Source: Escherichia phage teqhad
Length of the DNA: 64,000 bases
Strand: one strand, 5' to 3'
Sequence record: NC_054933.1
Numbering within the stretch: position 1 is the first letter of the stretch; each line of letters opens with the position of its first letter. A program made the translations under genes and the position numbers. Shown here in pieces: positions 43,459-44,406 of the stretch. A model generated the notes under the pieces. That model did not search any database, had not been told where the DNA came from, and saw nothing but the letters and a program-made list of their open reading frames with translations.

Positions 43459-43534
43459 TGGTCGAGGCAGTAGGGATCGAACCTACGACCCAGGACTTAG
43501 AAGGTCCTTGCTCTTCCTTCTGAGCTATGCCCCG
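43459..43534 (-). tRNA. tRNA-Arg (anticodon UCU)
   Basis: Manual fold: acceptor CGGGGCA/UGCCUCG, anticodon loop CUUCUAA, T-arm GUAGG-UUCGAUC-CCUAC, CCA encoded. Confidence 0.8.
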
Positions 43535-43538
43535 TAAT

Positions 43539-43614
43539 TGGGGTGACCGATGGGAGTCGAACCCATGACTACGAGAATCACAATCTCGAGTTCTACCAAC
43601 TGAACTACGGCCAC
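43539..43614 (-). tRNA. tRNA with anticodon GUG (His by anticodon; C73 present, no encoded G-1)
   Basis: Manual fold: acceptor GUGGCCG/CGGUCAC, D-stem GUUC/GAAC, anticodon stem CGAGA/UCUCG, loop UUGUGAU, T-loop UUCGACU, CCA encoded. Confidence 0.6.
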
Positions 43615-43728
43615 ATTAATACCTACTCCAACAATCAAGATGTCTTCACACGAAATTAAGAGAAGAGTGATCAGTTCAACCCCTATAATCGCGTCAAGTA
43701 GATATTAATGTGACAGTTGTCACAAATT

Positions 43729-43803
43729 TGGCGGACGTGATAGGATTCGAACCTATAACCAATCGCTTAACAGGCGATCGCTCTGCCATTGAGCTACACA
43801 TCC
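43729..43803 (-). tRNA. tRNA-Asn (anticodon GUU)
   Basis: Manual fold: acceptor GGAUGUG/CACGUCC, anticodon stem AUCGC/GCGAU, loop CUGUUAA, T-arm AUAGG-UUCGAAU-CCUAU, CCA encoded. Confidence 0.7.
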
Positions 43804-43807
43804 AAAT

Positions 43808-43894
43808 TGGTGGGGAGTGGTGGAGTCGAACCACCCGAGTCGCAATGACAATGGATTTACAGTCCACACCGCTACCTCTACGGGATAACTCCCC
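43808..43894 (-). tRNA. tRNA-Tyr (anticodon GUA), long variable arm
   Basis: Manual fold: acceptor GGGGAGU/ACUCCCC, anticodon stem GUGGA/UCCAU, loop CUGUAAA, T-arm GGUGG-UUCGACU-CCACC, CCA encoded. Confidence 0.65.
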
Positions 43895-43907
43895 TTAATT
43901 CTTAATT

Positions 43908-43982
43908 TGGTGGCCCTGGGTGGAATTGAACCACCATCTGGCGATTATGAGTCGCTTGCTTGAACCTTCCAGCTACAGGGCC
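43908..43982 (-). tRNA. tRNA with anticodon CAU (Ile-type as in T4, or Met)
   Basis: Manual fold: acceptor GGCCCUG/CAGGGCC, anticodon loop CUCAUAA, T-arm GGUGG-UUCAAUU-CCACC, CCA encoded. Confidence 0.65.
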
Positions 43983-43983
43983 T

Positions 43984-44059
43984 TGGTGCTGATTGACGGA
44001 ATCGAACCGCCGACCTTCTCATTACAAGTGAGTTGCTCTACCTACTGAGCTAAATCAGC
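43984..44059 (-). tRNA. tRNA-Thr (anticodon UGU)
   Basis: Manual fold: acceptor GCUGAUU/AAUCAGC, D-stem GCUC/GAGC, anticodon loop CUUGUAA, T-loop UUCGAUU, CCA encoded. Confidence 0.75.
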
Positions 44060-44064
44060 AAAAC

Positions 44065-44154
44065 TGGCGGAGGCGATAGGATTTGAACCTATGAGTCGCC
44101 GGAGCGACTGCCGGTTTTCAAGACCGGTGCATTAAACCACTCTGCCACGCCTCC
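44065..44154 (-). tRNA. tRNA-Ser (anticodon UGA), long variable arm
   Basis: Manual fold: acceptor GGAGGCG/CGCCUCC, anticodon stem CCGGU/ACCGG, loop CUUGAAA, T-arm AUAGG-UUCAAAU-CCUAU. Confidence 0.75.
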
Positions 44155-44156
44155 AG

Positions 44157-44230
44157 TCTCCATACAAGGATTTGAACCTTGGACCTCCTGATCCCAAATC
44201 AGGCGCTCTACCAAACTGAGCTACACGGAG
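44157..44230 (-). tRNA. tRNA-Pro (anticodon UGG), CCA not encoded
   Basis: Manual fold: acceptor CUCCGUG/UAUGGAG (G-U pairs), anticodon stem CCUGA/UCAGG, loop UUUGGGA, T-arm CAAGG-UUCAAAU-CCUUG; 2 nt from tRNA-Ser. Confidence 0.7.
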
Positions 44231-44240
44231 TAAATTAAAT

Positions 44241-44314
44241 TGGAGCGGATAATGAGAATCGAACTCACATCATCAGATTGGAAGTCTGAGGTAATACCAT
44301 TATACGATATCCGC
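44241..44314 (-). tRNA. tRNA-Gly (anticodon UCC)
   Basis: Manual fold: acceptor GCGGAUA/UAUCCGC, anticodon stem UCAGA/UCUGA, loop CUUCCAA, T-loop UUCGAUU, CCA encoded. Confidence 0.7.
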
Positions 44315-44319
44315 AAATT

Positions 44320-44406
44320 TGGTGCGAGAAGTGGGACTCGAACCCACAAGGAAATCATTCCGCAGCATTTTAAGTGCTGTGCCTTTACCAATTTGACCAT
44401 TCTCGC
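44320..44406 (-). tRNA. tRNA-Leu (anticodon UAA), long variable arm
   Basis: Manual fold: acceptor GCGAGAA/UUCUCGC, anticodon stem CAGCA/UGCUG, loop CUUAAAA, T-arm GUGGG-UUCGAGU-CCCAC, CCA encoded. Confidence 0.75.

What the first reader, a model, noticed from the sequence alone, without database searches (positions are those of the whole stretch)
43459..44406. tRNA cluster with Asn, Tyr and a GUG-anticodon tRNA, and no Gln
Ten tRNAs fold by hand on the minus strand: Leu(UAA), Gly(UCC), Pro(UGG), Ser(UGA), Thr(UGU), CAU(Ile-type), Tyr(GUA), Asn(GUU), GUG(His-type), Arg(UCU). As I recall, T4 encodes eight (Gln, Leu, Gly, Pro, Ser, Thr, Ile, Arg). This cluster therefore appears to gain Asn, Tyr and the GUG tRNA and to lack Gln. 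The GUG tRNA has the His discriminator C73 but no encoded G-1, which would make its identity and charging unusual. Pro has no encoded CCA and is 2 nt from Ser, consistent with a dimeric precursor.
Basis: partly seen in the sequence, partly recalled or inferred. Interest (0 to 1): 0.5.

Follow-up and report, generated by a model that had tools for sequence, protein, structure and literature searches.

The report
Known T-even phage tRNA operon
This is the ordinary ten-tRNA operon of a T4-like coliphage, already annotated in many sequenced relatives; its one real oddity is a histidine tRNA that lacks the usual extra 5' G and is always preceded by a long, conserved RNA helix.

Summary
The cluster is not new. 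The window is a Tequatrovirus, 98.8% identical here to phage Ozark, whose RefSeq record lists the same ten tRNAs. Phage Bas41 has them at 100% identity plus Gln. The differences from T4 are homing-endonuclease cassette swaps. In T4, segB sits where Tyr, Asn, a leader RNA and His lie here. In the window, an HNH endonuclease ORF (44413-45021) replaces nt 10-72 of tRNA-Gln and leaves a 9-nt stump. rnaD/rnaC homologues and a terminator follow Arg, as in T4. The tRNA-His claim holds and extends. The gene has G1-C72, C73 and CCA, with T at -1, in every T4-like genus sampled, whereas E. coli hisR encodes G-1. The 114-nt "spacer" before His is a structured RNA. Its 14-bp closing stem ends flush at -1 and is kept by compensatory changes. 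Phage T5 has the same arrangement: the stable "RNAIII" abuts a U(-1) tRNA-His. I found no paper describing this module. Cluster: already known. His module: a modest, real lead.

The parts
45043..45068 (-). Hairpin in the T4-type operon leader, upstream of the tRNA-Gln stump
   Evidence: Window 45100-45026 is 97% identical to the T4 sequence upstream of tRNA-Gln. The region folds with an 11-bp hairpin, z = -3.6. That RNase III acts on the T4 tRNA precursor near here is from my own knowledge (McClain 1979, listed in the references of PMC4810235); it was not tested.
45026..45034 (-). 9-nt remnant (TGGGAATTA) of the 5' end of tRNA-Gln
   Evidence: The alignment to T4 ends at T4 tRNA-Gln nt 9.
44413..45021 (-). 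Free-standing HNH homing-endonuclease ORF (202 aa) occupying the place of tRNA-Gln nt 10-72
   Evidence: PHROG 14736 'HNH endonuclease', E = 5e-124. The CxxC...DH...N...CxxCH motif is visible in the translation. Pfam HNH is weak (E = 0.006, below the cut-off). The same allele is in 62 phage records. Bas41 has an intact tRNA-Gln at this site instead.
44320..44406 (-). tRNA-Leu(UAA)
   Evidence: 87/87 identical to T4.
44241..44314 (-). tRNA-Gly(UCC)
   Evidence: 74/74 identical to T4.
44157..44230 (-). tRNA-Pro(UGG), no encoded CCA, 2 nt (CU) before Ser
   Evidence: identical to T4.
44065..44154 (-). tRNA-Ser(UGA), with CCA encoded here (T4's copy lacks it)
43984..44059 (-). tRNA-Thr(UGU)
   Evidence: 73/76 identical to T4.
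43908..43982 (-). tRNA-Ile2 type (CAU anticodon), CCA encoded; a different allele from T4's tRNA-Ile
   Evidence: Annotated Ile2-CAT in Ozark. Its best E. coli match is annotated tRNA-Ile. Only 51 identical positions in 82 aligned columns against T4 Ile; homology with T4 breaks about 20 nt into the gene.
43808..43894 (-). tRNA-Tyr(GUA), long variable arm
   Evidence: weak, 30.3 bits. 86/87 identical to T6 tRNA-Tyr, which counters Septu (PMC13096335).
43729..43803 (-). tRNA-Asn(GUU); in T2L this gene holds the preferred SegB cleavage site
   Evidence: PMC2330249.
43615..43709 (-). Structured leader RNA. A 14-bp A/U-rich closing stem (43696-43709 paired with 43615-43628) encloses two hairpins, and its 3' strand ends at position -1 of tRNA-His
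   Evidence: MFE -32.7 kcal/mol, z = -4.4. Flush stacking on the acceptor stem. Across 10 distinct T4-like sequences 99.3% of cells are paired, against 36-51% when partners are slid; 3 pairs show double-sided changes; 0/500 shuffles reach the observed score. 18 of 140 cells are G-U, so the fold is specific to the tRNA-sense strand.
43539..43614 (-). tRNA-His(GUG): G1-C72, C73, CCA encoded, T at -1 (no G-1)
43459..43534 (-). tRNA-Arg(UCU); a different allele from T4's tRNA-Arg
   Evidence: 51 identical positions in 86 aligned columns against T4.
43338..43457 (-). Homologue of the T4 stable RNA rnaD (species 2)
   Evidence: Alignment to the annotated T4 rnaD.
43193..43331 (-). Homologue of the T4 stable RNA rnaC (species 1)
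   Evidence: Alignment to the annotated T4 rnaC, near-identical.
43119..43142 (-). Intrinsic terminator hairpin plus U-run that closes the operon
   Evidence: Terminator scan; conserved in T4.

Best explanation
This is the tRNA operon of a non-T4 Tequatrovirus (Ozark / ACG-C40 / Bas41 type). It is one minus-strand transcription unit. It runs from the T4-type leader (about 45100), through an HNH endonuclease ORF, ten tRNAs and a structured leader RNA in front of tRNA-His, then through the rnaD and rnaC stable RNAs to a terminator at 43119-43142. Differences from T4 result from free-standing homing endonucleases exchanging cassettes. T4 carries segB together with its own Ile and Arg alleles where this phage has Ile2-Tyr-Asn-leader-His-Arg. 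In this phage an HNH endonuclease gene has replaced the body of tRNA-Gln. Host enzymes are inferred to cut the polycistronic precursor: RNase P at the 5' ends, RNase E/III and exonucleases elsewhere, with trimming and CCA addition for Pro. Two uses for the tRNAs are supported. First, they supply an AT-rich phage: the A-ending-codon readers shared with T4, plus extra Asn and Tyr capacity. Second, they keep translation going when host defences cut host tRNAs; this is shown for the near-identical T6 tRNA-Tyr against Septu, and for T5 Asn and Thr variants against PARIS. tRNA-His is a conserved, selected gene and not a decayed copy. Most likely it is released by RNase P and charged by host HisRS through C73 and the GUG anticodon, less efficiently than host tRNA-His. 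Its leader helix acts in cis on maturation.
For: Identity and annotation. Synteny and breakpoints against T4. HNH in place of Gln; intact allele. segB cassette replacement in co-infection: PMC2330249. T6 arrangement and Tyr identity; T6 tRNA-Tyr against Septu: PMC13096335. PARIS targets Lys, Thr(UGU) and Asn(GUU), with His as a minor target, and is rescued by T5 tRNAs: PMC12409363. Demand in 63 window ORFs: Asn 6.2%, Tyr 4.6% and His 1.8% of residues. His is under selection: C73, GUG and the 7/5 cloverleaf are invariant while stems co-vary across seven or more genera. Leader stem covariation. T5 parallel, with suppressor activity noted in the record. Terminator.
Against: No expression, processing or charging data exist for this phage. 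The transcription start was not located, and no sigma-70-like site was found on the minus strand within the cluster. Amino-acid demand does not explain His, which is only 1.8% of residues. E. coli HisRS loses more than 100-fold efficiency without G-1 (PMC5499578), so efficient histidylation is not assured. An anti-defence role is shown only for relatives' Tyr (T6) and for T5 variants, not for these exact Asn and His genes. T6 tRNA-Tyr is itself cut by Septu and helps only through dosage.
Confidence: 0.85

Rival explanations
1. The leader helix redirects 5' processing so that the mature phage tRNA-His keeps U(-1). Cleavage falls between -2 and -1, as for host tRNA-His. The tRNA then has the extra 5' nucleotide and 5'-phosphate that HisRS needs, without an encoded G.
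For: U at -1 is invariant in every true G-1-less phage tRNA-His collected, while -2 and -3 vary. The T5 record annotates tRNA-His as 78 nt beginning with that U and ends RNAIII just before it. The G-1 base mainly positions the 5'-monophosphate (PMC9976931). A helix flush with +1 accompanies loss of G-1: median 13 bp against 6 bp.
Against: The RNase P shift to -2/-1 is attributed to the G-1:C73 pair and to U-2 (PMC5499578). U-1 cannot pair with C73, and U-1 normally favours canonical cleavage. In T4-like phages -2 is mostly A. The T5 boundary may have been annotated by analogy and not measured.
Confidence: 0.2
2. The phage tRNA-His is not primarily a translation substrate. It is a poorly charged or uncharged decoy that soaks up a host tRNA-targeting nuclease or a modification enzyme acting on GUN/Q-family tRNAs.
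For: The major HisRS determinant is missing (PMC5499578). His codon demand is low. The three tRNAs absent from T4 (Tyr, Asn, His) are three of the four colicin E5 substrates (PMC1635277 abstract). His(GUG) is a minor AriB target, and overexpressed viral tRNAs may inhibit AriB (PMC12409363).
Against: C73 and the GUG anticodon, the remaining HisRS determinants, are strictly conserved across divergent phages, which suggests selection for HisRS recognition. The T5 counterpart works as a suppressor when given a CUA anticodon. The anticodon loop is identical to the host's, so nothing in it suggests nuclease resistance.
Confidence: 0.12
3. The structured element before His is an independent stable small RNA with its own trans function, like T5 RNAIII or T4 rnaC/rnaD. 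It merely uses the RNase P cut at His +1 to define its 3' end. Its link to the missing G-1 is incidental.
For: T5 RNAIII occupies the same position and is annotated as a stable RNA. T-even operons already carry two stable RNAs of unknown function. The element is thermodynamically stable.
Against: Only the closing stem is conserved. The interior is replaced or reduced to a plain hairpin loop in Kosakonia, Morganella, Aeromonas and some T5-like phages. That pattern fits a cis-acting helix better than a trans-acting RNA. The element always travels with His, whatever gene lies upstream.
Confidence: 0.2
4. The leader helix is an RNase III entry site, analogous to the RNase III-dependent step upstream of tRNA-Gln in the T4 precursor. 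It separates His-Arg-rnaD-rnaC from the upstream tRNAs.
For: A 14-15 bp sense-strand helix is conserved. RNase III involvement in T4 tRNA synthesis is cited in PMC4810235 (McClain 1979). The window keeps a second hairpin in the T4-type operon leader.
Against: 14-15 bp is short for E. coli RNase III. T5 RNAIII accumulates at about full length, which argues against cleavage within its stem. No RNase III data exist for this element.
Confidence: 0.15
5. The GUG tRNA is a decaying pseudogene, or a tRNA-finder artefact.
For: It lacks the G-1 identity element.
Against: 65 bits in Rfam and a tRNAscan-SE score of 73 in ACG-C40. It has a perfect 7/5 cloverleaf with compensatory changes in the stems across genera, and invariant C73, CCA and anticodon.
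Confidence: 0.02

Closest known systems
tRNA clusters of Tequatrovirus phages Ozark, ACG-C40 and slur03/14 (10 tRNAs plus HNH) and Bas41 FriedrichZschokke (11 tRNAs)
   Same: Same genes, order and spacing at 98-100% nucleotide identity. The same HNH ORF replaces Gln in 62 records. tRNAs are annotated as deposited.
   Different: Nothing of substance. ACG-C40 has an extra 116-aa ORF between Arg and rnaD. Bas41 keeps tRNA-Gln.
Phage T4 tRNA operon (Gln-Leu-Gly-Pro-Ser-Thr-Ile-segB-Arg-rnaD-rnaC)
   Same: Leu, Gly and Pro are identical, Ser is identical apart from the added CCA, and Thr matches at 73/76. The Pro-Ser dimer junction, operon leader, rnaD/rnaC and terminator are the same.
   Different: T4 has Gln and segB and lacks Tyr, Asn, the leader RNA and His. 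Its Ile and Arg are different alleles (about 60% identity). T4 Ser and Ile lack an encoded CCA, which is encoded here.
T2L/RB1/RB3 tRNA regions (Brok-Volchanskaya et al. 2008, PMC2330249) and the T6 tRNA-rich region (PMC13096335)
   Same: Met/Ile2(CAU)-Tyr(-Asn) cassette downstream of Thr. tRNA-Asn holds the preferred SegB site. T6 tRNA-Tyr is 86/87 identical.
   Different: T2L is described with two ORFs and no tRNA-His. T6 has segB after Tyr and lacks Pro, Ser, Asn and His.
Phage T5 RNAIII-tRNA-His(GUG) junction
   Same: A structured RNA of about 100 nt with a 15-bp closing stem ends flush at U(-1) of a C73, CCA-encoding, G-1-less tRNA-His. The T5-like phage SuperGirl keeps the stem by compensatory change around a different interior.
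   Different: No evident sequence similarity in the leader, and the tRNA bodies are divergent. The phage family is unrelated (Demerecviridae). RNAIII is annotated as a stable RNA, whereas nothing is known about expression of the window's element.
G-1-less tRNA-His of some alpha-proteobacteria and their phages (A73; 7/5 or 8/4 forms)
   Same: No encoded G-1.
   Different: Those tRNAs have A73 (or U73) and co-evolved HisRS enzymes (PMC9976931, PMC5389517). This one keeps C73 and infects hosts whose HisRS relies on G-1:C73.

Membership tests
Tequatrovirus (T-even) tRNA operon | Location between the ipI/trna.2-4 ORFs and the e.x genes, on the early-strand transcription unit | tested here: met
   Flanks align to T4 and Ozark.
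Tequatrovirus (T-even) tRNA operon | Core Leu-Gly-Pro-Ser-Thr block with the CCA-less Pro-Ser junction | tested here: met
   97.8% identity over 447 nt to T4.
Tequatrovirus (T-even) tRNA operon | Stable RNAs rnaD and rnaC and a terminator downstream of tRNA-Arg | tested here: met
Tequatrovirus (T-even) tRNA operon | Polycistronic transcription and host-enzyme processing | not testable with these tools
   Inferred from T4 literature; there are no RNA data for this phage.
Canonical bacterial tRNA-His | GUG anticodon | tested here: met
Canonical bacterial tRNA-His | C73 discriminator | tested here: met
   invariant.
Canonical bacterial tRNA-His | Genome-encoded G-1 pairing with C73 (8-bp acceptor stem) | tested here: not met
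   T at -1 in the window and in all T4-like relatives. E. coli hisR has G. Shifting the register to make G1 serve as G-1 breaks U8 and the T-stem and leaves CCCA at the 3' end (sequence inspection).
Canonical bacterial tRNA-His | Histidylation by host HisRS | not testable with these tools
   Needs charging assays.
Alpha-proteobacterial-type G-1-less tRNA-His | A73 (with U72) in place of C73; optional 8/4 cloverleaf | tested here: not met
   C73, G1-C72 and a 7/5 cloverleaf.
T5 RNAIII-type leader + tRNA-His module | Long closing helix of an upstream structured RNA ending at -1/-2 of a U(-1) tRNA-His | tested here: met
   for the window; for T5 and SuperGirl; for the association.
T5 RNAIII-type leader + tRNA-His module | Sequence homology of the leader to T5 RNAIII | tested here: inconclusive
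   No similarity by eye. No profile comparison was made, so convergence and common descent cannot be told apart.
T5 RNAIII-type leader + tRNA-His module | Accumulation of the leader as a discrete stable RNA | not testable with these tools
   Needs a northern blot or RNA-seq.
Free-standing HNH homing endonuclease | HNH beta-beta-alpha-metal motif | tested here: met
   PHROG 14736, E = 5e-124; motif visible; Pfam HNH below the cut-off.
Free-standing HNH homing endonuclease | Presence/absence polymorphism at one site among close relatives, with the empty allele intact | tested here: met
   62 records carry it. Bas41 and T4 have an intact tRNA-Gln there.
Free-standing HNH homing endonuclease | Site-specific cleavage of the endonuclease-free allele and homing | not testable with these tools
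   Needs enzyme assays or co-infection crosses.

The most novel reading that the evidence does not exclude
Two unrelated families of enterobacterial phages (Straboviridae and Demerecviridae) carry a dedicated tRNA-His module. The universal encoded G-1 is replaced by an invariant U(-1), which forms the last base pair of a 14-15 bp leader helix, while C73 is kept. The helix would specify a non-canonical 5'-maturation or identity route. One possibility is a U(-1)-bearing or otherwise HisRS-competent tRNA made without G-1; another is a deliberately HisRS-poor tRNA with an anti-defence role. T5's long-unexplained stable RNAIII would then be the excised leader of this module.
Probability: 0.3. Interest if true: 0.6.

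Novelty: already known. Interest (0 to 1): 0.3.

Why it matters
The cluster itself adds nothing new. It is a textbook example of homing endonucleases (segB in T4, an HNH enzyme here) reshuffling phage tRNA sets, and those sets are now understood partly as counter-defence cargo. The tRNA-His module is the part worth keeping. G-1 is described as the near-universal identity mark of tRNA-His, and E. coli HisRS depends on it. Yet hundreds of sequenced coliphage genomes carry a well-conserved tRNA-His without it, always behind a conserved helix. If that helix dictates how the 5' end is made or how the tRNA is recognised, it would be a new solution to tRNA-His identity. It would also explain a stable T5 RNA annotated with unknown function. 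The question is directly testable with available model phages (T5, Bas41).

Tried and rejected
(1) A promoter in the Asn-His gap. The TTGACG motif is not followed by a usable -10, the scan finds no minus-strand sigma-70 site there, and the motif is not conserved in other genera. Rejected. (2) A T4 late or middle promoter, or a PeSL cassette: no TATAAATA or MotA box by inspection. Rejected. (3) A DNA-level palindrome or endonuclease target: 18 of 140 stem cells are G-U, which would be A-C mismatches on the other strand. Disfavoured. (4) Known RNA families: only tRNA hits pass in Rfam, and sub-threshold hits (Plastid-ycf2, sX4, YrlA, tRNA-Sec) all overlie tRNAs. (5) An alternative register in which G1 serves as G-1, or an 8/4 cloverleaf: this breaks conserved tRNA positions. 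Rejected. (6) My first viral-contig pattern had a spacing error and found nothing. The corrected body-only patterns worked. (7) Homology of the HNH ORF to T5 hegC/hegD: only the shared motif (pairwise E = 0.004-0.008). (8) PDB sequence search for the HNH protein: nothing significant. (9) Literature searches for phage tRNA-His without G-1, for T5 RNAIII, and for His/Asn-directed phage defences. They found the SegB, Septu, PARIS and HisRS identity papers but none on this module. Absence from a partial library is not proof of novelty. (10) The small palindrome UGUGAC/GUCACA at 43709-43724 is not conserved outside the genus and was not pursued.
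Full report
OBSERVATION. ARAGORN finds ten tRNA genes in the whole 64-kb window, all on the minus strand between 43459 and 44406. Rfam's tRNA model hits the same ten above its gathering score: nine at 59-74 bits and Tyr at 30.3 bits against a cut-off of 29. No tRNA-Gln is called. The flanked sequences confirm the details. Pro ends at its discriminator A, followed by CU and then Ser +1, so it has no CCA. tRNA-His reads GTGGCCG...CGGTCAC-C-CCA with T immediately upstream.

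WHAT GENOME THIS IS. The region is 98.8% identical over its full length to Escherichia phage vB_EcoM_Ozark, and 1084 GenBank phage records match it, almost all T4-like. Ozark's RefSeq record annotates the same ten tRNAs and calls the CAU species Ile2. ACG-C40 (98.5% identical) carries tRNAscan-SE scores of 58-89 for nine tRNAs and 39 for Tyr. Phage Bas41 (FriedrichZschokke) is 100% identical across 43300-44406 and has an eleventh tRNA, Gln, just upstream of Leu. The cluster as such is already in the databases many times.

COMPARISON WITH T4. T4 is annotated Gln-Leu-Gly-Pro-Ser-Thr-Ile-segB-Arg-rnaD-rnaC. A direct comparison gives four segments.
- Window 45100-45026 matches T4's operon leader plus the first 9 nt of tRNA-Gln at 97%.
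- From 45021 to 44413 an ORF replaces the rest of Gln. Homology resumes 3 nt before Leu.
- Leu through the first ~20 nt of the CAU tRNA is 97.8% identical. Leu, Gly and Pro are identical, Ser is identical except that CCA is encoded here, and Thr matches at 73/76.
- The stretch Ile2(3' part)-Tyr-Asn-114 nt-His-Arg(5' part) has no T4 counterpart. T4 has segB there, flanked by different Ile and Arg alleles (about 60% identity).
Homology returns inside Arg and continues through rnaD (43338-43457), rnaC (43193-43331) and a terminator at 43119-43142.

WHY GLN IS MISSING. The 202-aa ORF at 44413-45021 matches PHROG 14736 "HNH endonuclease" at E = 5e-124. It shows the CxxC...DH...N...CxxCH motif, although Pfam HNH stays below its cut-off. 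The identical allele is in 62 phage records. Bas41, T4 and T6 have an intact Gln at the same place. This presence/absence pattern at one site, with a 9-nt tRNA stump (45026-45034), is what a free-standing homing endonuclease inserted into, or replacing, a tRNA gene would leave. Cleavage activity is inferred, not shown.

WHY TYR, ASN AND HIS ARE "EXTRA". Brok-Volchanskaya et al. (PMC2330249) showed that T2L, RB1 and RB3 lack segB and carry Met(CAU), Tyr and Asn genes. They also showed that SegB's preferred cut site lies inside tRNA-Asn, and that in T4 x T2L co-infections the segB region replaces about 1250 bp of T2L carrying Met, Tyr, Asn and Arg. T6 has Thr-Met-Tyr-segB. The leader+His unit also occurs in Karamvirus, Jiaodavirus, Gelderlandvirus, Kanagawavirus, Gualtarvirus and Chrysonvirus phages. 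The simplest reading is that T4 lost these genes to segB, not that this phage gained them.

WHAT THE tRNAs ARE FOR. In 63 window ORFs, Asn is 6.2% and Tyr 4.6% of residues with a 4:1 preference for NAU, and His is 1.8%. From memory, E. coli is near 3.9%, 2.8% and 2.3%. Demand therefore fits Asn and Tyr but not His. A second role is now documented. The T6 tRNA-Tyr, 86/87 identical to this one, lets T6 overcome Septu, which cuts tRNA-Tyr in the variable loop (PMC13096335). PARIS AriB cuts Lys(UUU), Thr(UGU) and Asn(GUU), with His(GUG) as a minor product, and T5 tRNA variants rescue infection (PMC12409363). E. coli tRNA-Asn is reported as U36-A-A-U-C|C41 at the AriB site. The window's Asn reads U36-A-A-G-C|G41. 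That difference could matter, but this is inference only.

THE tRNA-HIS QUESTION. All 5426 complete E. coli genomes have a hisR that is 80% identical to the phage gene, and hisR has G at -1 where the phage has T. Bacterial His identity is G-1, C73 and the anticodon (PMC9976931). Loss of G-1 lowers E. coli HisRS efficiency more than 100-fold, and G-1:C73 together with U-2 is what moves RNase P to the -2/-1 site (PMC5499578). In eight T4-like phages from seven genera, -1 is always T while C73, CCA and GUG are invariant and the stems co-vary. A pattern placed wholly inside the tRNA body retrieved 54 unique genes from viral and metagenomic contigs. Every T4-like one has T at -1, and many non-T4-like ones have G-1. 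A broader viral sample gave 30 of 38 unique tRNA-His genes with G-1. Among loci with at least six tRNAs outside the T4-like group, eight encode G-1 and two do not. The omission is therefore a conserved lineage trait. It is neither an error nor a general property of phage tRNA-His genes.

THE "SPACER" IS A STRUCTURED RNA. The 114 nt between Asn and His fold to -32.7 kcal/mol, z = -4.4. A 14-bp A/U-rich stem (43696-43709 with 43615-43628) closes a three-way junction, and its 3' strand ends at -1, directly abutting the acceptor stem. In ten distinct T4-like sequences, 99.3% of stem cells pair, against 36-51% when partners are slid by 1-3 columns. Three pairs change on both sides (for example A:U to U:A at position 11 in four sequences), and no shuffle of 500 reaches the observed covariation. 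Eighteen of the 140 cells are G-U, so the helix exists only on the tRNA-sense strand, which points to RNA. The interior varies and is reduced to a simple loop in Kosakonia, Morganella and Aeromonas phages. The unit stays attached to His whatever lies upstream: Asn, Gln or Ser.

A PARALLEL IN T5. In T5 the tRNA-His gene also has U at -1 (and at -2), C73 and CCA. The record annotates a 106-nt "RNAIII, stable RNA with unknown functions" ending immediately before it. RNAIII folds with a long closing stem. Extended by three flanking nucleotides, the stem is 15 bp and flush with -1. The T5-like phage SuperGirl has a different, shorter interior but again a flush 15-bp stem. Its first 7 bp match T5, and the next 8 differ in a compensatory way. 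The T5 record notes that a CUA-anticodon version of this tRNA is an effective amber suppressor, so it is matured and charged in vivo. Over 93 unique tRNA-His genes, the longest helix ending at -1 to -3 has a median of 13 bp when G-1 is absent and 6 bp when it is present (Mann-Whitney p = 1.4e-9). Two caveats apply. Only a few independent lineages contribute. Three "absent" cases (L035, L038, L062) are ARAGORN register errors that in fact have G-1. In two further G-1-less groups (mycobacteriophage Bread and the L025 type), the abutting helix is the acceptor stem of the preceding tRNA.

INTERPRETATION. I commit to the ordinary reading for the cluster (confidence 0.85). For tRNA-His the default is canonical RNase P cleavage and inefficient but sufficient histidylation through C73 and the anticodon, with the helix acting in cis. 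Alternatives are retention of U-1, a decoy role, an independent stable RNA, or an RNase III site; they are listed with the tests that would separate them. None can be decided from sequence. I found no paper that describes the module, but the searchable library is partial.

VERDICT. The cluster is already known. The residual lead, a leader-helix plus G-1-less tRNA-His module shared by T4-like and T5-like phages, is real and cheap to test, and it would be of moderate interest to tRNA specialists.

Noticed in passing
window 43615-43709 (minus strand): The Asn-His 'spacer' is a conserved structured RNA. A 14-bp closing stem ends flush at -1 of tRNA-His and is maintained by compensatory and G-U changes across T4-like genera; the interior varies.
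   Followed up: yes
L199 (T5, NC_005859) 6207-6390; L200 (SuperGirl) 205-349: T5 and a T5-like phage have the same design: a U(-1), C73 tRNA-His abutted by a structured RNA (T5 'RNAIII, stable RNA of unknown function') with a flush 15-bp stem. The stem is conserved by covariation between the two phages.
   Followed up: partly
window 44413-45034: An HNH homing-endonuclease ORF replaces nt 10-72 of tRNA-Gln and leaves a 9-nt stump. 62 GenBank phages share the allele, and Bas41 keeps the intact Gln.
   Followed up: yes
window 43908-43982 and 43459-43534: The CAU (Ile2-type) and Arg(UCU) tRNAs are only about 60% identical to T4's Ile and Arg. The homology breakpoints with T4 fall inside these two genes, so the whole Ile-to-Arg segment is an alternative cassette.
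   Followed up: yes
window 44065-44067 and 43908-43910: Ser and Ile2 encode their CCA here, whereas T4's Ser, Ile and Gln do not. Only Pro needs CCA addition in this phage, so it should depend less on the host 3'-trimming and CCA-adding pathway than T4.
   Followed up: partly
window 43808-43894: tRNA-Tyr scores poorly (Rfam 30.3 bits; tRNAscan-SE 39 in ACG-C40) and seems to have a mismatch in the D-stem. It differs from T6 tRNA-Tyr at one anticodon-stem position (C here, T in T6). The T6 paper reports its tRNA-Tyr as relatively unstable.
   Followed up: partly
window 43760-43772 (Asn anticodon arm): The phage tRNA-Asn reads U36-A-A-G-C|G41 where E. coli tRNA-Asn is reported as U36-A-A-U-C|C41 at the PARIS AriB cleavage site. 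This may confer resistance; it was not tested.
   Followed up: no
L201 (ACG-C40) 355-705: ACG-C40, slur03/14 and many other relatives carry an extra ORF of about 116 aa between tRNA-Arg and rnaD. The window, Ozark and T4 lack it.
   Followed up: no
L010 (mycobacteriophage Bread) 301-374; L025, L030, L065, L067 (freshwater viral and metagenome contigs): Other phage lineages also have C73 tRNA-His genes with T instead of G at -1. There the gene sits 1-2 nt after the acceptor stem of the preceding CCA-less tRNA.
   Followed up: partly
window 43709-43724: A small perfect palindrome, UGUGAC-AACU-GUCACA, lies just after tRNA-Asn. Only its 3' half is conserved in Karamvirus and Gelderlandvirus.
   Followed up: no
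window 43193-43457: Homologues of T4's stable RNAs rnaD and rnaC, whose functions are still unknown, are conserved downstream of Arg. rnaC is almost invariant, while the central part of rnaD is variable.
   Followed up: partly
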